Of a DNA stretch of 29,045 bases, positions 3,693 through 19,221 are shown in pieces. Source of the stretch: a virus (taxonomy: Duplodnaviria > Heunggongvirae > Uroviricota > Caudoviricetes); the IMG/VR virus record IMGVR_UViG_2778261464_000005; one strand, given 5' to 3'. Positions within the stretch are counted from its first letter, which is position 1. Each line of letters starts with the position of its first letter. The translations under genes and the position numbers were made by a program. Below the pieces are notes generated by a model, which was not told where the DNA came from, made no database searches, and saw only the letters and a list, made by a program, of their open reading frames with translations.

Positions 3693-4127
3693 ATGTCCGG
3701 TAATATCTATACGCTGTACAAATCCCACTGTGAAAATGTTGGAAAGTATCGGGGCATTGAAATCAGTGGGGTAGTGTCATCAGTCGAAATAAGCAAAGTT
3801 GAATCAAGGGCAACATTACTAACTCTTCTGGACCTTGTGTTACATGAGCACCGGAAGAAATTCGGCACTCCCTATAATCAGTTGAATGGGAAAAAGGCTC
3901 TGGTTCACCTTATTCTGATGAAGCATCACTGGATGCCAAAACAGATTAATGAGATGAAATTTGATGAACTTCTTCTTTCAATTCAGGATGAACTCACACT
4001 TGATAAAATAAGCGTAACCGCCCAGAAATTTTTAGATTATCGAGACTGGAGATCACAAATTCATCACTTTGATGATTTTGACGAAAATGAATGGGATCCT
4101 AATTTGTCTGCACAATATCTAAAGTAA
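3693..4127 (+). CDS. Hypothetical protein (AT-rich moron between xis and the immunity region)
   Basis: 144-aa ORF with no recognisable motif, transcribed opposite to int/xis/cI, lower GC than neighbours, preceded by the direct repeats above. Confidence 0.55.
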   Translation: MSGNIYTLYKSHCENVGKYRGIEISGVVSSVEISKVESRATLLTLLDLVLHEHRKKFGTPYNQLNGKKALVHLILMKHHWMPKQINEMKFDELLLSIQDELTLDKISVTAQKFLDYRDWRSQIHHFDDFDENEWDPNLSAQYLK

Positions 4128-4305
4128 CATCCTGTGATAAAACCGTGATTTCCTGATCCAGTTTTTTTAAGGAGTCTATTGTTTCCTGTCGATAAGACAG
4201 CACTTCACGAAGCTGGTTTATAGCTGCCAGCTTCTTTGTCATCCACTCATAAATTTCCTCATCTGTGTAGTCAGGCGCGACGATTTTGGGTTCTGTTTTG
4301 TGCAT
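4099..4305 (-). CDS. Small hypothetical protein (68 aa), first gene of the leftward early transcript
   Basis: Internal ATG at 4305 preceded by GAGGAGG (spacing ~6). Its 3' end overlaps the 3' end of the convergent 3693..4127 gene by 29 nt. No arginine-rich N-like motif. Confidence 0.45.
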   Translation of the reverse strand: MHKTEPKIVAPDYTDEEIYEWMTKKLAAINQLREVLSYRQETIDSLKKLDQEITVLSQDVTLDIVQTN

Positions 4306-4363
4306 TTCACACCTCCTCAAGTTATCAGTTACTTGTTGATGGGGACCAGATTGTTAAAGAGCT

Positions 4364-10780: not shown

Positions 10781-10799
10781 GACGGCCATATTGGCCGTC
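10781..10799. terminator. Perfect hairpin (GACGGCCA-TAT-TGGCCGTC) between convergent Q and the minus-strand cassette; possible bidirectional terminator
   Basis: 8-bp perfect stem read directly; overlaps the stop codon of the 10798..11976 gene and lies 8 nt after the Q stop. No strong U-run on either side. Confidence 0.4.
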
Positions 10800-11976
10800 A
10801 GCTAAATAAATATGTAATAGCATAAGGCGTAAGTAAAAAGTAGAATCTAAATGTAAGATATAAGCCACATAAAACTATAATTCCTAATGAGGCAAAAACA
10901 ACTTTCTGAACAAGCAATCTTGTGGTTAAACTATCAAATGTATCCTTTATATCTTCGTAAATAGCCTTGAAGTTATATTCTGCTTGTTGTTTTTTATGAT
11001 TTAACTCATCATTTATTGCTGTTAAAGTTTGCCATTGATTAAATAGAACAAATAGAATCATAATAGTGAAGAACAATGCACCCAACACTACAGCTGTGTT
11101 TATTAATGCTTGACTATCCCAACCATTAGCCTGCTTCATTTGAGTCGCAACGATAATTGTTGCGACGGGGATACCTAATATCTGATTTTGTATGTCACTG
11201 AATACTTTATGTATTTTCCCCATCTCTTCTATTTTGGCTACTCGTAACTGATCCAGTATTTTCTCGTAAGAAAAACCAGAAACGAATACTTTGTATCCTT
11301 TTTGATAACTTTCATAAAGTTGTCCTAAATCCCTTAACATGAAGGAAAAAGAGGTTTCTTTAGTTTTAGATTCACATGATGATTTTATACTACTTGCTAA
11401 AATAGTAAGTTTTTGATCTTTATGCGTATCTTCTGCAAAGTTTGCGATCAAATTATGAATCAGATCTCCATTAACATTCATAAGATCATCGCTAGAATAA
11501 TTTACTGGAATTTTTAGTACGTTGGATTCGACGAATACCAATTCAAAATTTGTTTCATCTAAATAAGCAGAACAATCTTTGAATAAAGTAATTAAGCTCA
11601 AAACATCTCTGTACTTGGATATAATAGCAGGCGACTTTTTATCCCTGTTGTGATAATTAAGTTCGATTATAAAGAAGTTACTGGCTTCCTTTATCCTATT
11701 TTTAGGATTTTTTAAATACTCATTAAAAGAGAAATGTAGCTGCCCCAATCGTAATTTGGGGGGGGTTATATGTAAGGTTATAGTTTGGCCTAACTCAATG
11801 TTGCCAGATTCAAGGGTGATGCCAAAATCATGGGGATTCTCTGTGATATCGTTGATGATGTCACAGAGCTCCTCGTTTGAAAGAATGAGTGATGCTTCAG
11901 ATAGGGTACCTGCAAATGTAGCGGCCTTGTAAATAGTCACTAAGTCTTTGAAGGTTCTCTGATTGTTACTGCTCAT
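10798..11976 (-). CDS. Hypothetical protein with ~280-aa soluble N-terminal domain and two C-terminal transmembrane helices (candidate membrane effector)
   Basis: ATG 11976 preceded by AGGTGA; starts 7 nt after the upstream gene stop (operon). Hydrophobic helices ALINTAVVLGALFFTIMILFVLF and VVFASLGIIVLCGLYLTFRFYFLL. AT-rich, no recognisable enzymatic motif. Confidence 0.7.
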   Translation of the reverse strand: MSSNNQRTFKDLVTIYKAATFAGTLSEASLILSNEELCDIINDITENPHDFGITLESGNIELGQTITLHITPPKLRLGQLHFSFNEYLKNPKNRIKEASNFFIIELNYHNRDKKSPAIISKYRDVLSLITLFKDCSAYLDETNFELVFVESNVLKIPVNYSSDDLMNVNGDLIHNLIANFAEDTHKDQKLTILASSIKSSCESKTKETSFSFMLRDLGQLYESYQKGYKVFVSGFSYEKILDQLRVAKIEEMGKIHKVFSDIQNQILGIPVATIIVATQMKQANGWDSQALINTAVVLGALFFTIMILFVLFNQWQTLTAINDELNHKKQQAEYNFKAIYEDIKDTFDSLTTRLLVQKVVFASLGIIVLCGLYLTFRFYFLLTPYAITYLFS

Positions 11977-13000
11977 CCTCTTCACCTAATTCTGATAAAA
12001 TCTCTGATCTTAGCGTATCCGGAATCTCGGTAAGTATCAATTTATCGTTTTCTGAATCATAAAGAACGCTGCCATCATGCAAGGCCGCACGCTCGAATTT
12101 CAGAGACCAATGTTTGGACTTTCCTTTGAAACTAACAAGCCCACGTATAACGTTGCCATCAGGCACGAACCCATCAGAGAACTCCAGATCGTCATTGGTT
12201 AACTTTTCAACTAACAACTCAGGAGCAGTTGGCCATATCTCGTTTGCAAAAATTTGAGTGTCGAAAGTTTCACCAGAACGATTTAAATTTTTTAATTTTT
12301 CATGAGCCTTATTTAGGAACTCTTCACGTGCCTCTGGTTCAAAACCTCTTTCAGTAGCAAATTCTAAAAGTGCATTCCGTAATTTTGTTGTTTCTTGTTT
12401 GGCAATTAGAATATCGTTGCAACCTAAAAACTTTTTGAAATAACCTGCTACTGAATTTTGCCCCTTTAGAAAGCTAATATATCTCTCTTTGCCATTCTGG
12501 CGCCCAGTTAAGTCAATTCGTCCCGCTACTCGAAGTTTAGCAATGTCTAGATATTCACTTTCTTGAATTTCAAAATCGTGGACTGAAGAGCCAACTGCTG
12601 ATGTTAGGATTGCAACCATCAAATAATGATTTCCATTTACCTCATTATGGGCAATTATTACATAACCACCAGTAGACATTGATTCATCATCGGCTCTGGC
12701 TTTTAAATGATTGATCATTCGGATACTAGTATCATAAAAACTATGTGTTTTATTTACGAAATAATCATCAACGATATTACCCATAGGGTAACTATCGCGG
12801 TCATCTTCAAATTTCCCATATCCTTTACCTGCTCTCCCAGAGTACCTTTCAGTAAGTGCGTTAGAGAGGTCTTTTGATGCTTGCTGAACAGGTTTTTCTG
12901 AAGGACAAGGAATAATGGTGGCTAACCCCTGTTGTTCCTTGTTCATAATGTGAACAATAAACTTATGAGTGATATTAGTGGGGGTCGCTGATGCAGTCAT
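11966..13000 (-). CDS. Divergent NdpA/YejK-family (NA37) nucleoid-associated protein homologue
   Basis: 344 aa, about the size of YejK (~335 aa). Colinear blocks with E. coli YejK as I recall it: [20 protein letters not shown] vs [41 protein letters not shown] vs [40 protein letters not shown] vs [25 protein letters not shown]. AT-rich. Confidence 0.7.
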   Translation of the reverse strand: [344 protein letters not shown]

Positions 13001-13117
13001 AACAACATCCTTTTAATGGTTTTGAACAATTGGTGTTGATAATACTTCAAAAAATACTAATGCGTACGCAAAAAATACAGTACTCTGTTAAGAGTGGTTA
13101 CTTCGCCACACAGCTTA

Positions 13118-13146
13118 AACCCGCCGTCGAGCGGGTTTTGTCGTTT
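13118..13146 (+). terminator. Hairpin + U-tract upstream of the holin gene (tR'-like terminator/attenuator)
   Basis: AACCCGC-CGTCGA-GCGGGTT followed by TTGTCGTTTCT, read directly. By position this corresponds to the late-transcript terminator that Q-modified polymerase reads through; I could not identify PR' itself. Confidence 0.45.
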
Positions 13147-13290
13147 CTGGGCTTTGGTATTCGTTGGGCTTGGTCTATCTAGCTCTTATCCATTGGCTCG
13201 GCTTCTTTTACGTTTCCGCTTCTGATTTGCGGTTCGTGGTACTCCCTCAATTTGCACCTCTTGTATCGGCGAGGTGAGAGATAACTACAA

Positions 13291-13617
13291 ATGCCTCATA
13301 ACCCAAATACTTGGCTGGAGTTGGTCCAGAGCTGGTGGCGTGGAGACACACCGCTGGGCGCAGTGATTATGTCGATTGTTATGGCTGGTTTGCGCATTGC
13401 CTATTTTGGCGGTGGTGGTGGCTGGAAGCGAAAAACACTCGAAATTCTACTCTGTGGCGCTCTGACGCTGACTTTTGCATCCGCTCTTGAGTATGTCGGA
13501 TGGCCTAAATCGCTTTCTGTTGCCATTGGTGGTGGGGTGGGGCTGATCGGTGTCGATGCTATTCGTGGGGCTGCAATGAGAGTAATCGGTAATAAGTTTG
13601 GTGGCTCTAAGGAGTAA
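13291..13617 (+). CDS. Holin (three-TM, lambda S-like architecture)
   Basis: 108 aa with hydrophobic segments and a charged C-terminus, directly upstream of the endolysin. Confidence 0.8.
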   Translation: MPHNPNTWLELVQSWWRGDTPLGAVIMSIVMAGLRIAYFGGGGGWKRKTLEILLCGALTLTFASALEYVGWPKSLSVAIGGGVGLIGVDAIRGAAMRVIGNKFGGSKE

Positions 13618-13620
13618 TTT

Positions 13621-14097
13621 ATGCAGGTACTAAATTCCCAGCGTAAAGCTTTCCTCGATATGGTGGCATGGTCAGAAGGAACGGATAACGGGCGACAACC
13701 GACACGTAACCACGGTTATGATGTTATTGTTGGTGGTGAACTGTTCACTGATTACTCCGATCACCCTCGCAAACTTGTCACGCTAAACCCAAAACTCAAA
13801 TCAACAGCCGCCGGACGTTACCAGCTTCTTTCCCGTTGGTGGGATGCCTACCGTAAGCAGCTTGGCCTGAAAGACTTCTCTCCAAAAAGCCAGGACGCTG
13901 TGGCATTGCAGCAGATTAAGGAGCGTGGCGCTTTACCGATGATTGATCGCGGTGATATTCGTCAGGCTATCGACCGTTGCAGCAATATCTGGGCTTCACT
14001 GCCGGGCGCTGGTTATGGCCAGTTCGAGCATAAGGCTGACAGCCTGATTGCAAAATTCAAAGAGGCTGGCGGAACGGTCAGAGAGATTGAGGTATGA
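13621..14097 (+). CDS. R: Endolysin, lambda R-type lytic transglycosylase
   Basis: 158 aa, nearly identical along its length to lambda R as I recall it ([149 protein letters not shown]). Confidence 0.92.
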
Positions 14098-14531
14098 GCA
14101 GAGTCACCGCGATTATCTCCGCTCTGATTATCTGCATCATCGTCTGCCTGTCATGGGCTGTTAATCATTACCGTGATAACGCCATCGCCTACAAAGAGCA
14201 GCGCGATAAAGCCACATCCACAATCGCTGACATGCAGAAGCGTCAACGTGATGTAGCAGAACTTGACGCCAGATACACAAAGGAGCTTGCTGATGCTAAC
14301 GCGACTATCGAAAGTCTCCGTGCTGATGTTTCTGCTGGTCGTAAGCGCCTGCAAGTCGCCGCCACCTGTGCAAAGTCAACGACCGGAGCCAGCAGCATGG
14401 GCGATGGAGAAAGCCCAGGACTTACAGCAGATGCTGAACTCAATTATTACCGTCTCCGAAGTGGAATCGACAGGATAACCGCGCAGGTTAACTACCTGCA
14501 GGAATACATCAGGACGCAATGCCTTCGATGA
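14094..14531 (+). CDS. Rz: Rz i-spanin
   Basis: N-terminus [31 protein letters not shown] matches lambda Rz; overlaps the R stop; contains the embedded Rz1 frame. Confidence 0.85.
14293..14478 (+). CDS. Rz1: Rz1 o-spanin lipoprotein (embedded in Rz in another frame)
   Basis: Signal peptide with lipobox ([20 protein letters not shown]) followed by a proline-rich stretch ([16 protein letters not shown]). Start chosen at the internal Met of track ORF 14263..14478. Confidence 0.7.
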
Positions 14532-14720
14532 TAGCGATAATTTTACTCATCATCCTTCACATCTGGCTCTGTAGACAGGGTGGTGCTTACTTCTGGAGCG
14601 AATCCAGATTAAACATCTCATTGCTGATGCTTGATATTGAGCATCTGGCGCGCGGTAAGGGCTGTGTTGAGATAAGTGCCAGTTCATTACAAAGCTATAT
14701 CTAATGGAACCTGAAATAAT

Positions 14721-14738
14721 TTGTCATTGTCATGACAA
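14721..14738. promoter_or_regulatory. Palindromic operator-like site TTGTCA-TTGTCATGACAA upstream of the 14782 moron
   Basis: Perfect 12-bp palindrome TTGTCATGACAA (14727-14738) preceded by a direct repeat of the half-site, about 45 bp upstream of the start codon. Confidence 0.35.
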
Positions 14739-14781
14739 GAAAATTCATTAATGATGAGCTCTCATTATACGGGAGGTAGAT

Positions 14782-15030
14782 ATGGCATTTCGTTATTTTG
14801 AACTTACCGAAAATATTCCTTTTGAGGATGCAAGAGAGCTTCACGTACAGTTCAAACACCACTTAGAATATGTTGTAAAGGCATTATTTATGTTAGGAAC
14901 ACATGAAAAGCATTTAATTGTTGAAGGCCGGGATGACGAATCGATAACACAGATATTTGGTGGGCATGATGAAAAGTTTATGCATCTTTATCATATCGAT
15001 GAATATGAAAAACGTGAAGACTTAATCTAA
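14782..15030 (+). CDS. Small acidic His-rich hypothetical protein (moron)
   Basis: 82 aa, strong SD (GGGAGGTAGATATG), AT-rich, palindromic site upstream. Confidence 0.55.
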   Translation: MAFRYFELTENIPFEDARELHVQFKHHLEYVVKALFMLGTHEKHLIVEGRDDESITQIFGGHDEKFMHLYHIDEYEKREDLI

Positions 15031-15145
15031 CCTCCTACGACTGTTTTTATTGCCATCATAAAAGCCATTCCTTGCAGAGTGGCTTTGATAATGGATATCC
15101 CAACAAGCGGATAAGACAATAAATATACCCACCAGGGGATAAACA

Positions 15146-15391
15146 ATGTCTAAAATCACGGTTACACCTGCATAGCAGATCCGCTTAAACCTGCTGGCGA
15201 AACTGAACTATGACACCGCCGCTGCAGCAGACGCGATTAAGTTTGTTGGTGACGATCCGTTGAAGTATCAAATCTTTGTGAACCAGTTAAGCTGGGTAAT
15301 ATCTGAAAGCGGGCTGGTAGCCAGAACGACGAAAGCTATCAAAGAGTCGGAAGACACACTACTGTGGTTTGAAGCTGAATCTGGTTCATAA
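15146..15391 (+). pseudogene. Small gene interrupted by an in-frame amber (TAG) codon at codon 10
   Basis: ATG 15146 with AGGGGA upstream gives MSKITVTPA, then TAG at 15173-15175, then 71 further protein-like codons (QIRLNLLAKLNYDTAAAADAIKFVGDDPLKYQIFVNQLSWVISESGLVARTTKAIKESEDTLLWFEAESGS) to TAA 15389-15391. No ATG downstream of the TAG in that frame. Confidence 0.4.
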
Positions 15392-15439
15392 GTGAATGAA
15401 TGTGGTAATTTAATCCTCCGCAAAAAAAAGGGGATAAAA

Positions 15440-15661
15440 ATGCTAAAGAATGTCATAGCTATTTTACCGGGTGACGCGTTTGATCATGTTGTTGTCCAGG
15501 ACGACCTGGAGATTGTTACCTTCAGGGGTGACAAGGGCGGCGTGCTTACTATGCCTATCGAGGAGTACGAACTAGACGGGATAAGTTATAACGTCGCACG
15601 TTGTGACGGTATGGTCACTGACGAAAAAGTTGAGAAGGCTATCAGACACTTCACCAAGTAA
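15440..15661 (+). CDS. Small hypothetical protein
   Basis: Internal ATG 15440 of track ORF 15392..15661, preceded by AGGGGA; 73 aa; followed by an intrinsic terminator. Confidence 0.55.
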   Translation: MLKNVIAILPGDAFDHVVVQDDLEIVTFRGDKGGVLTMPIEEYELDGISYNVARCDGMVTDEKVEKAIRHFTK

Positions 15662-15678
15662 TAATCAGCTTCCGAACC

Positions 15679-15704
15679 AAGCCTCGCAATAGCGAGGCTT
15701 TTTA
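15679..15704 (+). terminator. Intrinsic terminator (AAGCCTCGC-AATA-GCGAGGCTT + T-run)
   Basis: Perfect 9-bp stem and T5 read directly, ~20 nt after the stop of the 15440 gene. Confidence 0.6.
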
Positions 15705-15715
15705 ACGACAGAGGT

Positions 15716-15910
15716 ATGACAGTGGTTCTTACAGCTAAGCAGTTTGAAGACCTTGCATCCTTCGCGAAGGAAGATAGCCAGCCTCAATACACCATCGCAA
15801 CCGGAATAATCCCAGAATTCGAAGATGATTGTGAGTTTATCCCCGTTTATGCCGGGCTCATCGCTTATTTAGAGTTACTGAATCACGGTGTATTGCAACT
15901 CGACCACTAG
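15716..15910 (+). CDS. Small acidic hypothetical protein
   Basis: 64 aa; start ambiguous (ATG 15716 sits right against the SD; GTG 15722 has better spacing). Confidence 0.45.
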   Translation: MTVVLTAKQFEDLASFAKEDSQPQYTIATGIIPEFEDDCEFIPVYAGLIAYLELLNHGVLQLDH

Positions 15911-15984
15911 CGACATTACGCCAAGTATTCATCAAGTGCCTAGTTTAATGTTAAATTATTCCCTCATTCATAAAAGGGAATGTT

Positions 15985-16386
15985 ATGAAAATAGATCACG
16001 AGTATTTGAAAGGTCTTTTGGAAGCTTTCGAGGCGTCTGAAGAGCCGCATACTGATATAAAGCAGCTGCAGCTGGCTGGGTATGACTACAGCACCGATGA
16101 ATTTTTATTCCATATGCGTTTATTGGCTGATCGTCAACTAATTGCTAGAACAGACGGCAAGTATGGGTTTGGTTTCTCTGAGGCTGCTGATGGAGGATCA
16201 TGGTTCGTTATACCGTTACGATTAACTTCAAGCGGTCATGACTTCCTTGAAGCTCTCAGGAATAAAGAGGTTTGGAATTCTCTCAAGACCGGCTTTAAAG
16301 ATGCAAGCATTGGAACATTAGTTGACGTTTCAAGGCGTTTGCTGGATGGTTATATTCAGAAAAAAATTGACGACTTAATTGGCTAA
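15985..16386 (+). CDS. Hypothetical protein (AT-rich moron, 133 aa)
   Basis: Clean ORF with its own terminator downstream; no motif recognised with confidence. Confidence 0.6.
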   Translation: MKIDHEYLKGLLEAFEASEEPHTDIKQLQLAGYDYSTDEFLFHMRLLADRQLIARTDGKYGFGFSEAADGGSWFVIPLRLTSSGHDFLEALRNKEVWNSLKTGFKDASIGTLVDVSRRLLDGYIQKKIDDLIG

Positions 16387-16403
16387 TATTTTATATAACC
16401 ATC

Positions 16404-16429
16404 AGCCCCGCAATCGCGGGGCTTTTTTA
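16404..16429 (+). terminator. Intrinsic terminator (AGCCCCGC-AAT-GCGGGGCT + T6)
   Basis: Perfect 8-bp GC-rich stem followed by TTTTTT, read directly. Confidence 0.65.
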
Positions 16430-16520
16430 TTGCCATTATGATGGCAGATATATTGCTATGGCGTAACAGGATTTCAACTATGAACCCAACAGAAGCAGCT
16501 ACATCACCGAAGGACGGATA

Positions 16521-16871
16521 ATGCCACCACGCACACCAAAAGCCTGCCGTGTTCGCGGGTGCCGCCATACCACCACTGACCCGTCAGGTTATTGCGAAAG
16601 CCACAAAAGCGAAGGCTGGAAGCAATACAAGCCAGGACAATCCCGTCATCAGCGCGGCTACGGTTCGAAGTGGGATGTTATCCGCGCGCGTGTGCTGAAG
16701 CGTGACAAAGGTTTATGTCAGTTATGTCTGCGTGCCGGTGTGGTGCGTGAGGCGAAAACCGTTGACCACATCATCCCTAAAGCGCATGGCGGCACTGATG
16801 CCGACAGCAATCTGCAGAGCCTGTGCTGGCCGTGTCATAAGGCGAAGACGGCCCGTGAACGGTTGAAGTAA
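16521..16871 (+). CDS. HNH endonuclease (packaging-associated, adjacent to terminase)
   Basis: 116 aa; Cys pairs plus HNH-type motif (TVDHIIPKAHGGTDADSNLQSLCWPCHKAKT); sits immediately upstream of the terminase small subunit, as in HK97-like packaging modules. Confidence 0.8.
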   Translation: MPPRTPKACRVRGCRHTTTDPSGYCESHKSEGWKQYKPGQSRHQRGYGSKWDVIRARVLKRDKGLCQLCLRAGVVREAKTVDHIIPKAHGGTDADSNLQSLCWPCHKAKTARERLK

Positions 16872-16897
16872 GAACCAGTTCCCACTGCCAGAGGGGA

Positions 16898-16957
16898 GGG
16901 GCGGGTCAAATCTCTGTGACCTGACGTCTTCCGGACTGCCCGCCCCATCGTTTTTTT
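16898..16957 (+). other. GC-rich inverted repeat (GGGGCGGG ... CCCGCCCC) followed by T7; candidate terminator and/or cos/packaging-site region
   Basis: 8-bp arms separated by ~33 nt, then TTTTTTT, read directly. Lies between the HNH and terminase small subunit genes, where cos sites sit in HK97-like phages. Confidence 0.3.
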
Positions 16958-16996
16958 ATACCCGCGAAAAATGAAATTTAAACAGGAGTGCCGCAT

Positions 16997-17491
16997 ATGG
17001 CTGGAACGGCGGGGCGTTCCGGGCGTCGCCCCAAGCCAACGGCGCGCAAGGCGCTGGCCGGAAACCCCGGCAAGCGAGCCCTGAACAAAGATGAACCTGT
17101 TTTTACGCCCATCAAAGGGGTTGAGCCACCGGAGTGGTTCGCAGAAGAAAATCTCCCTCTCGCTACGATCATGTGGCAACTGACAACCAAAGAACTCTGC
17201 GGTCAGGGCCTGCTGTGCGTGACTGACCTCGCGGTGCTTGAGCGGTGGTGCGTAGCCTATGAGTTCTGGCGACGTGCCGTGAAAAATATTGCCAGCCAGG
17301 GCAACACCATCACCGGTGCAATGGGCGGTATGGTCAAAAATCCGGAGCTGACCGCCAAGAAAGAACAGGAGTCCGAGATGAGCAGCACGGGGGCAATGCT
17401 CGGACTCGACCCCAGCAGCCGCCAGCGTCTGATTGGCCTGGCGGGGCAGAAGAAAGCCACTAACCCGTTTCTGAAAATTATCGAATCATGA
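16997..17491 (+). CDS. Terminase small subunit (P27 family)
   Basis: [34 protein letters not shown] is the characteristic P27-family N-terminus; AGGAG 8 nt upstream of ATG 16997; overlaps the large subunit start. Confidence 0.85.
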
Positions 17492-19221
17492 GCCGGAAAT
17501 CTTACCCCAACGTAAATGCAGCCAATCAGTATGCCCGTGATGTCGTGCGCGGAAAGATTGTGGCCTGCCAGTTTGTGATTCAGGCCTGCCAGCGCCATCT
17601 TGATGACCTGATGGCGGAAAAAAGTAAGTCGTTTCGTTACCGCTTCGACAAGGACCTGGCTGAACGGGCCGCGAAATTTATTCAGCTGTTGCCGCACACC
17701 AAGGGTGAGTGGGCATTCAAACGGATGCCCATCACGCTGGAGCCGTGGCAGCTATTTGTGATCTGCTGTGCGTTTGGCTGGGTCAATAAAGGCACCCGGT
17801 TGCGCCGCTTCCGGGAGGTGTATACCGAAATCCCCCGTAAGAACGGCAAATCAGCAATCTCTGCCGGTGTTGCCCTGTATTGTTTTGCCTGTGATAACGA
17901 GTTTGGCGCGGAAGTGTATTCCGGTGCCACGACAGAGAAACAGGCGTGGGAAGTCTTTCGCCCGGCGCGACTGATGTGTAAACGCACACCCATGCTGACG
18001 GAAGCGTTCGGGATTGAGGTTAACGCCTCAAACATGAACCGTCCGGAGGATGGCGCGCGGTTTGAACCGCTGATCGGTAACCCTGGTGATGGTTCATCAC
18101 CCCACTGTGCGGTGGTGGATGAATATCACGAGCACGCCACCGATGCGCTTTATACCACGATGCTTACCGGGATGGGGGCGCGACGTCAGCCACTGATGTG
18201 GGCCATCACCACCGCCGGGTACAACATTGAGGGGCCGTGCTACGACAAGCGGCGGGAAGTTATCGAGATGCTCAACGGTTCGGTACCCAACGATGAACTG
18301 TTCGGGATCATCTATACCGTTGATGAAGGTGACGACTGGACCGACCCGCAGGTGCTGGAAAAAGCCAATCCAAATATTGGCGTGTCGGTTTATCGCGAAT
18401 TTTTGTTAAGTCAGCAGCAGCGTGCTAAAAATAACGCCCGTCTGGCAAACGTCTTTAAAACAAAACACCTCAATATCTGGGTGTCGGCGCGTTCGGCGTA
18501 TTTCAACCTGGTGAGCTGGCAGAGCTGCGAGGATAAATCACTGACCCTTGAGCAGTTCGAGGGGCAGCCGTGCATTCTGGCCTTTGACCTGGCGCGTAAG
18601 CTGGATATGAACAGCATGGCGCGACTTTATACCCGCGAGATTGACGGTAAAACGCATTACTACAGTGTGGCCCCGCGTTTCTGGGTACCGTATGACACGG
18701 TGTACAGCGTCGAGAAAAATGAAGATCGCCGGACAGCCGAACGCTTTCAGAAATGGGTGGAAATGGGCGTTCTGACTGTTACCGCTGGTGCGGAGGTGGA
18801 TTATCGCTACATCCTCGAGGAGGCCAAAGCGGCGAACAAAATCAGCCCGGTCAGTGAGTCACCCATCGACCCCTTCGGGGCGACCGGGCTGTCGCATGAC
18901 CTTGCTGATGAAGACCTGAACCCCATCACCATCATTCAGAACTACACCAACATGTCCGATCCGATGAAAGAGCTGGAAGCGGCGATTGAATCGGGGCGCT
19001 TTCATCATGACGGCAATCCCATCATGACCTGGTGTATCGGCAACGTGGTCGGCAAAACCATTCCGGGTAACGATGATGTGGTGAAGCCTGTCAAGGAGCA
19101 GGCGGAAAACAAAATCGATGGTGCGGTTGCACTGATTATGGCGATCGGTCGGGCAATGCTCAAAGAACCCGACGATTTCCTCTCATCTCTTGATCCGGAC
19201 GATGCTCTCTTAATTCTATGA
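17488..19221 (+). CDS. Terminase large subunit (HK97-like)
   Basis: 577 aa with ATPase region ([18 protein letters not shown], ...AVVDEYHEH) and nuclease region; position between the small subunit and portal. Confidence 0.9.

What the first reader, a model, noticed from the sequence alone, without database searches (positions are those of the whole stretch)
15146..15391. Small late-region gene carrying an in-frame amber codon after codon 9
A well-initiated ORF (SD AGGGGA, ATG 15146) hits TAG at 15173-15175 after nine codons, yet the same frame then continues for 71 protein-like codons with no internal ATG. This looks like a recent nonsense mutation, or a gene expressed only with stop-codon read-through or a suppressor.
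Basis: seen in the sequence. Interest (0 to 1): 0.4.

Follow-up and report, generated by a model that had tools for sequence, protein, structure and literature searches.

The report
Amber-inactivated DUF2560 prophage accessory gene
A small phage gene of unknown function (DUF2560 family) in an E. coli prophage carries an inherited C-to-T mutation that turns its tenth codon (glutamine) into a stop, so it is most likely an ordinary dead accessory gene, not a recoding signal.

Summary
ATG 15146 has the SD AGGGGA 6 nt upstream. Nine codons follow, then TAG at 15173-15175, then 71 open codons to TAA 15389-15391, with no in-frame ATG.

The conceptual read-through product is a full-length DUF2560 (PF10834) protein, and the match spans both sides of the TAG. 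All 29 intact homologues examined at the DNA level have Gln at this codon (25 CAG, 4 CAA). The nearest relatives have CAG, so the TAG is a single C->T transition.

It is not a sequencing error or a private mutation. The same TAG is present in 12 other near-identical copies: E. coli chromosomes, draft assemblies, IMG/VR prophages and one gut metagenome contig. Gene calls that begin just after it occur on about 170 contig records.

There is no sign of recoding:
- no suppressor tRNA in the window or in the whole prophage;
- TAG terminates 4 of 59 prophage genes;
- no Rfam element and no unusual RNA structure downstream;
- the stop is not conserved in any diverged homologue.

The TAG lineage has also changed seven otherwise conserved residues. 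One sub-lineage has in addition lost its stop codon and weakened its SD, which fits relaxed constraint.

Verdict: an ordinary inherited nonsense allele, that is, a pseudogene of a dispensable accessory gene. Low interest.

The parts
15134..15139 (+). Shine-Dalgarno-like AGGGGA, 6 nt upstream of the ATG. It is ancestral to the gene module.
   Evidence: The same upstream sequence is present in the intact homologues L008, L018, L020, L022, L029, L031 and L032. It is weakened to AAGGGA in the TAG sub-lineage L002/L015.
15146..15391 (+). DUF2560 (PF10834 / phrog_571) gene interrupted by an amber codon. The conceptual product is 81 aa; the translated product is most likely only the 9-residue peptide MSKITVTPA.
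15173..15175 (+). Amber codon TAG replacing the ancestral Gln10 codon CAG (a C->T change at 15173). The next base is C (TAG-C).
   Evidence: CAG in the nearest intact relatives L018, L019, L008 and L020. CAG or CAA in 28 of 29 intact genes found by the motif search; the 29th (L012) was missed by that search but reads Q in the translation. TAG in all 12 near-identical copies.
15176..15388 (+). 71 codons of the DUF2560 frame downstream of the amber codon, most likely untranslated. They include the family motif DDPLKYQ and the lineage-specific replacements N19K, R50W, T52I (this window and L014 only), E70D, A71T and L74W.
15260..15262 (+). In-frame TTG (Leu39) created by a lineage-specific synonymous CTG->TTG change, with GGTGA 7 nt upstream. 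It is a possible but unproven internal start for a 43-aa C-terminal fragment.
   Evidence: TTG in 12 of 12 TAG alleles and 0 of 29 intact alleles. ORF 15260..15391 is listed. All carriers belong to one lineage, so this is a single event.
15440..15661 (+). Downstream 73-aa gene with its own GGGGA SD and ATG. It does not depend on translation of the interrupted gene.
   Evidence: In L002/L015 a TAA->TAC stop loss in the DUF2560 frame makes PGAP annotate one fused CDS.

Best explanation
The feature is an inherited nonsense allele. A single C->T transition changed the conserved Gln10 codon (CAG) of a DUF2560-family accessory gene into amber TAG. This happened in the common ancestor of a lineage of SfV/e14-like prophages (HK97-type head, contractile tail, integrated at the tRNA-Thr gene next to proA) that now circulates in Escherichia. 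Ribosomes start at the ancestral SD/ATG, make a 9-residue peptide and are released by RF1. The remaining 71 codons are not translated to any useful level, so the gene is functionally dead and evidently dispensable. The rest of the late operon is unaffected, because the next gene has its own ribosome-binding site. By inference, late transcription driven by the prophage's Q antiterminator also resists Rho-dependent polarity. Shown here: the ancestral codon, the family membership, the spread of the allele, and the absence of suppressor or recoding signals. Inferred: lack of translation beyond the TAG, dispensability, and absence of polarity.
For: (1) The interrupted frame is one full-length DUF2560 gene; the profile match spans the TAG (phrog_571). 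(2) Intact 81-aa homologues read ...TVTPAQQIRLNLL..., and codon 10 is CAG in the four nearest relatives. It is CAG or CAA in 28 intact genes and TAG only in the near-identical clade. (3) TAG was verified in DNA in L001-L007, L014-L017 and the gut-metagenome contig L095. A scan for the clade-specific 5' end with either C or T at that base found only T. PGAP calls that begin just after the TAG sit on 75 + 71 + 18 + 7 contig records. (4) There is no tRNA in the window and none annotated within the whole prophage. TAG terminates 4 of 59 prophage CDS, and no other CDS has an internal stop. There are no Rfam hits. The RNA downstream of the TAG folds no better than shuffled sequence, z=-0.20. (5) Relaxed-constraint signature: private changes on the TAG lineage are 3 synonymous against 6 replacements. 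Five of the six (E3K, R50W, E70D, A71T, L74W) fall at columns that are invariant or at least 90% conserved in 31 intact homologues. Inside the clade there are 0 synonymous changes against N21Y, D36E, T52I and a stop loss, plus an SD-weakening change. Intact lineages show 48 synonymous to 28 replacement private changes, and a median pairwise dN/dS of 0.097. Fisher's exact test gives p=0.013, or p=0.024 if the stop loss is left out. (6) The prophage is otherwise complete.
Against: No expression data exist, so low-level read-through cannot be excluded. Near-cognate tRNA-Gln inserts Gln at UAG in E. coli, which would restore the ancestral residue (PMC4333366). A C after a stop codon is the weak termination context (PMC5289835). 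The selection evidence is thin. The stem branch alone is not significant (p=0.15). The order of the TAG and the six replacements on that branch is unknown. The within-clade 0:4 ratio does not differ from that of the neighbouring small accessory ORFs, which together show 4 synonymous to 9 replacement changes. The frame has stayed free of further stops and indels across about 170 records, as expected if the allele is young but also if the frame is still used.
Confidence: 0.85

Rival explanations
1. Leaky stop, an attenuated allele. The TAG-C is read through at low frequency by near-cognate tRNA-Gln(CUG), which yields the ancestral full-length protein at a small fraction of the normal level. This reduced dose is what the E. 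coli lineage of the phage uses or tolerates.
For: The ancestral residue is Gln. Gln is among the amino acids inserted at UAG by near-cognate tRNAs in E. coli (PMC4333366). +4C is the weak termination context (PMC5289835). The initiation signals are intact in most copies, and the frame is still open in all 13 copies.
Against: The stop occurs only in one near-identical clade, whereas programmed read-through sites are conserved across diverged homologues. There is no stimulatory structure and no Rfam element. The downstream frame has taken replacements at seven conserved positions, and one sub-lineage has lost the natural stop and weakened the SD. Basal UAG read-through in RF1-proficient cells is low (own knowledge).
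Confidence: 0.07
2. The functional gene starts downstream of the TAG, giving an N-terminally truncated DUF2560 protein. This could be made from the non-canonical starts chosen by PGAP (ATC 15179, 70 aa; ATT 15236, 51 aa) or from the lineage-specific TTG 15260 (43 aa), which has GGTGA 7 nt upstream.
For: RefSeq/PGAP annotates such products. The TTG at codon 39 is present in 12 of 12 TAG alleles and 0 of 29 intact alleles, and it has an SD-like GGTGA at ideal spacing.
Against: The annotated starts differ between records (70, 66, 62, 51 and 37 aa). They are non-canonical codons with no SD, which is typical of homology-driven rescue of a broken gene. The predicted fold is one compact four-helix unit (H8-19, H24-34, H38-50, H57-79; pLDDT 91.8). 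A 43-aa product would lack the first two helices and a 51-aa product most of them. The TTG co-occurrence is a single event in a single lineage. The C-terminal part carries most of the non-conservative replacements.
Confidence: 0.05
3. Suppressor-dependent expression or stop-codon reassignment. The phage or its host would supply an amber suppressor tRNA, so that TAG is a sense codon here.
For: Nothing, apart from the open frame after the TAG.
Against: ARAGORN finds no tRNA in the window. The only tRNA annotated near the full prophage is the tRNA-Thr gene beside the integrase. TAG ends 4 of 59 prophage genes, and no other gene has an in-frame TAG. The carriers are ordinary environmental and animal E. 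coli.
Confidence: 0.01
4. Sequencing or assembly error: the true base is C.
For: None.
Against: The identical TAG appears in 12 independently produced sequences from different laboratories and sample types.
Confidence: 0.01

Closest known systems
Intact DUF2560 (Pfam PF10834, PHROG 571) genes of temperate phages and prophages of Enterobacter, Leclercia, Silvania and Klebsiella (for example P0002/L008, L018-L020; Klebsiella phage ST147-VIM1phi7.2)
   Same: Same family and the same 81-codon length. The start codon and SD are the same, as is the DDPLKYQ motif. Genomic position is the same: after the lysis genes and shortly upstream of HNH endonuclease, TerS and TerL. Up to 89% amino-acid identity.
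Classical laboratory amber mutants of phage late genes (for example lambda Sam7, and the P22 and T4 amber mutants; own knowledge)
   Same: A CAG->TAG change in a late-operon gene, producing a short N-terminal peptide. It would be suppressed back to Gln by a supE-type tRNA.
   Different: This one is natural and sits in a non-essential accessory gene. It is fixed in a wild prophage lineage and needs no suppressor host for phage viability.
Programmed stop-codon read-through (for example the Qbeta A1 protein, or the leaky UAG of tobamoviruses; own knowledge)
   Same: An in-frame stop followed by an open, protein-like frame, and a weak +4C context.
   Different: Those stops are conserved across diverged relatives, and the downstream frame is under purifying selection. 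Here the stop is confined to one near-identical clade, lies near the N-terminus, and the downstream frame shows relaxed constraint.

Membership tests
DUF2560 (PF10834) | Profile HMM score above Pfam's gathering threshold over most of the model | tested here: met
   53.7 bits against a cut-off of 25, E=2.5e-14, profile positions 2-69 of 72, using the conceptual translation with Q at codon 10. phrog_571 at 1.7e-23.
DUF2560 (PF10834) | Conserved core motif and residues (QQIRLNLL, YDT, DDPLKYQ) | tested here: met
   All are present in the window's frame, apart from Q10 itself. The window keeps D36 and D37.
DUF2560 (PF10834) | Uninterrupted reading frame of about 75-81 codons | tested here: not met
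   TAG at codon 10. The locus is therefore a pseudogene or nonsense allele of the family, not a functional member.
DUF2560 (PF10834) | Typical genomic position in temperate phages: downstream of lysis genes, upstream of HNH/terminase | tested here: met
   An HNH, TerS or TerL homologue lies downstream of the DUF2560 gene in most of the 80 IMG/VR loci, often within 100 nt. The window and the prophage map agree.
Programmed stop-codon read-through gene | The stop codon is conserved at the same site in diverged homologues | tested here: not met
   0 of 29 intact homologues have a stop there. TAG occurs only in copies at least 99% identical to each other.
Programmed stop-codon read-through gene | Purifying selection on the frame downstream of the stop | tested here: inconclusive
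   The lineage shows 3 synonymous changes against 9-10 replacement or stop-loss changes; intact lineages show 48 against 28 (p=0.013-0.024). This points to relaxed constraint, but the counts are small and the neighbouring small ORFs show 4 against 9.
Programmed stop-codon read-through gene | Stimulatory context or RNA structure 3' of the stop | tested here: not met
   Fold z-score -0.20 for 15170-15270. No Rfam family in the window. The only supportive element is +4C.
Suppressor-tRNA-dependent or TAG-reassigned phage genes | A phage-encoded suppressor tRNA (anticodon CUA) | tested here: not met
   No tRNA in the window. No tRNA is annotated inside the complete prophage in NZ_CP064847.
Suppressor-tRNA-dependent or TAG-reassigned phage genes | In-frame TAG codons in many genes, and TAG avoided as a terminator | tested here: not met
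   4 of 59 prophage CDS end in TAG, and none has an internal stop.
Suppressor-tRNA-dependent or TAG-reassigned phage genes | The host carries an amber suppressor | not tested
   The host chromosomes (about 5 Mb each) were not scanned for tRNAs with these tools.

The most novel reading that the evidence does not exclude
The amber codon is not simply a dead end. It would be a retained, selected attenuator. Either low-level near-cognate Gln read-through delivers a trickle of the ancestral DUF2560 protein, or the lineage-specific TTG at 15260 (with GGTGA upstream) now initiates a new 43-residue C-terminal product. In both cases the fast, non-conservative change of the C-terminal half would reflect a new function and not decay.
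Probability: 0.07. Interest if true: 0.4.

Novelty: already known. Interest (0 to 1): 0.1.

Why it matters
It matters little beyond annotation hygiene. The case shows how a homology-driven pipeline (PGAP) papers over a nonsense allele. It invents non-canonical ATC/ATT/CTG starts, and in one strain it creates a fused CDS, so that about 170 database records call a broken gene an intact 'DUF2560 family protein'. The case also gives weak genetic evidence that DUF2560 is dispensable for maintaining this prophage lineage in E. coli, and probably for its spread. That is one of the few functional hints available for an uncharacterised phage family. If the minority reading (selected leaky stop or new internal start) were true, it would be a modest natural example of dosage attenuation by an amber codon in a phage late operon.

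Tried and rejected
- Megablast of 15000-15700 against the phage collection found nothing. Relatives were found in E. coli chromosomes and by protein search.
- Search for an intact (CAG) ancestor carrying the clade-specific K3. The pattern with Y at the mutated base found only TAG copies in the metagenome and viral collections. No full-length protein above 89% identity appears among the clusters searched.
- Internal control for relaxed selection using polymorphism in neighbouring genes. The essential genes are dominated by synonymous, probably recombination-imported, variation. The small accessory neighbours show 4 synonymous to 9 replacement changes. The within-clade 0:4 pattern of the DUF2560 gene is therefore not specifically informative, and I give it little weight. 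The alignment of the minus-strand NA37-family gene in that script was disturbed by an indel region, and its counts were discarded.
- The genome-contig scan gave only 5 loci, all intact or diverged. With one genome per species, it was uninformative for the E. coli lineage.
- Promoter and terminator scans around the gene found nothing beyond chance.
- Rejected: sequencing error, phage suppressor tRNA, and code reassignment (see the rival explanations).

Full report
**Observation.**
- AGGGGA lies at 15134-15139, 6 nt before ATG 15146.
- Codons 2-9 encode SKITVTPA, and TAG lies at 15173-15175.
- The same frame then runs for 71 sense codons (15176-15388) to TAA 15389-15391, with no in-frame ATG.
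- By base composition alone, such an open stretch has a probability of about 0.024. Homology makes chance irrelevant.

**What the frame is.**
- With Q placed at codon 10, the 81-residue product matches Pfam DUF2560 (PF10834) at 53.7 bits (cut-off 25), E=2.5e-14. Residues 5-72 align to profile positions 2-69 of 72, so the match covers both sides of the stop.
- It also matches PHROG 571, function unknown, at 1.7e-23.
- A search of the large protein collection returned 41 relatives. Most are exactly 81 aa, from Enterobacter, Leclercia, Silvania, Phytobacter and Klebsiella, with up to 89% identity.
- In the alignment they read MSEITVTPAQQIRLNLL..., and position 10 is Q.
- At the DNA level, codon 10 is CAG in the four nearest intact genes (L018, L019, L008, L020). 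Among 28 intact genes picked up by the motif search it is CAG in 24 and CAA in 4. The 29th, L012, was missed by that search but reads Q.
- The TAG is therefore a single C->T transition at 15173 in a conserved Gln codon.

**Not an error and not private.**
- The TAG is present in two complete E. coli chromosomes aligned base by base, in five further NCBI assemblies, in four IMG/VR prophage contigs and in a human-gut metagenome contig. All are at least 99% identical to the window in this region.
- A pattern search for the clade-specific 5' end, allowing C or T at the mutated base, recovered only T.
- PGAP has rescued the broken gene with a non-canonical ATC start immediately after the TAG. Four such 70-aa variants sit on 75, 71, 18 and 7 contig records: the consensus, N21Y, D36E and T52I. 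The last is the window's own variant.
- Other records use ATT (51 aa) or other starts. In strain 2c3, a TAA->TAC stop loss leads to an annotated fusion with the next gene.
- Among 5,426 complete E. coli genomes, only 9 have any DUF2560 gene. Six carry this TAG allele and three carry an intact allele about 79% identical.

**Context.**
- In E. coli strain 20 the element is a complete prophage of about 39 kb, beside the tRNA-Thr gene downstream of proA.
- It has e14/CPS-53-like early genes, a Q-family antiterminator, a lambda-type lysis cassette and five or six small accessory ORFs, one of which is this gene. These are followed by HNH endonuclease, a P27-family TerS, TerL, an HK97-type head and a sheathed tail.
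- In the IMG/VR loci, DUF2560 genes sit just upstream of HNH/TerS/TerL genes of varied type.
- The family fold is predicted with confidence as a small four-helix unit (pLDDT 91.8; helices 8-19, 24-34, 38-50 and 57-79). Neither structure comparison nor sequence comparison with solved structures, NCBIfam or the literature yields a function.

**Tests for recoding.**
- ARAGORN finds no tRNA in the window. The complete prophage carries no annotated tRNA; the only one nearby is the tRNA-Thr gene beside the integrase.
- TAG is a normal terminator for 4 of 59 prophage genes, and no other gene has an internal stop.
- No Rfam family reaches threshold anywhere in the window.
- The 100 nt from the stop onwards fold no better than shuffled sequence (z=-0.20).
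- The stop is not conserved in any diverged homologue.
- The only features compatible with leakiness are the C that follows the TAG, a weak termination context according to PMC5289835, and the fact that near-cognate tRNA-Gln can insert Gln at UAG in E. coli (PMC4333366). That insertion would regenerate the ancestral residue.

**Selection.**
- Intact DUF2560 genes are under purifying selection, with a median pairwise dN/dS of 0.097. Their lineage-private changes are 48 synonymous and 28 replacement.
- The TAG lineage has, besides the TAG itself, 3 private synonymous changes and 6 replacements (E3K, N19K, R50W, E70D, A71T, L74W). Five of the six fall at columns that are invariant or at least 90% conserved in 31 intact homologues.
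- Inside the TAG clade there are no synonymous differences. The differences are N21Y, D36E (in the DDPLKYQ motif), T52I and a stop loss, plus an SD-weakening G->A in the same sub-lineage as the stop loss.
- Pooled, 3 against 10 compared with 48 against 28 gives Fisher p=0.013, or 0.024 without the stop loss. The ratio equals the neutral expectation of about 3:1.
- Three caveats apply. The stem alone is not significant (p=0.15). The order of the TAG and the stem replacements is unknown. The neighbouring small accessory ORFs together show 4 synonymous to 9 replacement polymorphisms in the same sample, so the within-clade pattern is not specific.
- Overall, the data fit relaxed constraint and give no indication that the downstream frame is still being protected.

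**An oddity.** One of the three private synonymous changes is CTG->TTG at Leu39 (15260). It is present in 12 of 12 TAG alleles and 0 of 29 intact ones. It creates an in-frame TTG with GGTGA 7 nt upstream. All carriers belong to one lineage, so this is a single event and may be coincidence. A 43-aa product would lack the first two helices of the predicted fold. I keep it only as a low-probability alternative.

**Mechanism, committed.**
- A C->T transition made an amber codon at Gln10 of a dispensable accessory gene.
- Translation from the ancestral SD/ATG ends after nine residues.
- The next gene (ATG 15440) has its own GGGGA SD.
- Late transcription in lambdoid phages is Q-antiterminated and so resistant to Rho-dependent polarity (established knowledge for lambda Q; an inference here). 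Downstream packaging and morphogenesis genes are therefore unaffected.
- The allele has hitch-hiked with an otherwise intact prophage through many Escherichia strains. Confidence is about 0.85.
- Rivals: functional leaky read-through (about 0.07), a downstream start giving a truncated protein (about 0.05), suppressor or reassignment (about 0.01) and sequencing error (about 0.01).

**Comparison and novelty.** The locus is a nonsense allele of a known, uncharacterised family. It meets the sequence, motif and synteny criteria of DUF2560 but fails the intact-frame criterion. It resembles a classical laboratory amber mutation (CAG->TAG in a late gene) that arose naturally in a non-essential gene. 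It does not meet the criteria of programmed read-through or of suppressor-dependent coding. Nothing here is new in kind, and interest is low. The practical lesson concerns annotation: about 170 database proteins with invented non-canonical starts derive from this one broken gene.

Noticed in passing
window 10798-13000 (- strand): Two cargo genes lie on the opposite strand, between the Q antiterminator and the holin. One is a 395-aa protein with no Pfam or PADLOC match. The other is a 344-aa NA37/YejK-like nucleoid-associated protein (PF04245, 8.3e-69). This is the classic moron position in lambdoid phages, so they may be a lysogenic-conversion or defence cargo.
   Followed up: partly
L001 3237-3392; L002 3237-3662; proteins P0001, P0027, P0042-P0047: RefSeq/PGAP annotates the amber-interrupted gene as an intact 'DUF2560 family protein' using non-canonical starts (ATC, ATT, CTG), giving products of 70, 66, 62, 51 or 37 aa. 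In strain 2c3 it is annotated as a 141-aa fusion with the next gene after a TAA->TAC stop loss. About 170 contig records carry these artefactual proteins.
   Followed up: yes
window 15260-15262: A lineage-specific synonymous change, CTG->TTG at Leu39, is found in all 12 TAG alleles and none of 29 intact alleles. It creates an in-frame TTG with GGTGA 7 nt upstream. It may be coincidence or a new internal start.
   Followed up: partly
window ~15681-15704 and 16404-16423 (+): There are G+C-rich hairpins after the 73-aa gene (AGCCTCGC-AATA-GCGAGGCT followed by TTTT, just below the scan's T-run threshold) and after the DUF2513 gene (AGCCCCGC-AATC-GCGGGGCT followed by TTTTTT). The two share nearly the same stem and loop. 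This suggests terminator-bounded moron units inside the late operon.
   Followed up: no
window 16900-18400 compared with 13000-16900, in L001-L007 and L014-L017: Among otherwise near-identical prophages, the TerS/TerL region carries far more variation than the lysis and accessory region, and most of it is synonymous: 98 synonymous sites in about 1.4 kb. The pattern suggests recombinational mosaicism of the packaging module within this lineage.
   Followed up: no
L037-L054 and L081-L091 (IMG/VR loci), positions about 4001-4310: In many Klebsiella-type phages the DUF2560 gene ends only about 60-100 nt before an HNH endonuclease gene, which is followed by TerS and TerL. This recurrent adjacency might hint at a packaging-related role for the family.
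   Followed up: no
L094 11398-11708 (outside or near the start of the window's prophage early region): The same prophage in E. coli strain 20 carries a second annotated pseudogene, a frameshifted hypothetical protein. The amber-interrupted gene is therefore not the only decayed accessory gene in this element.
   Followed up: no
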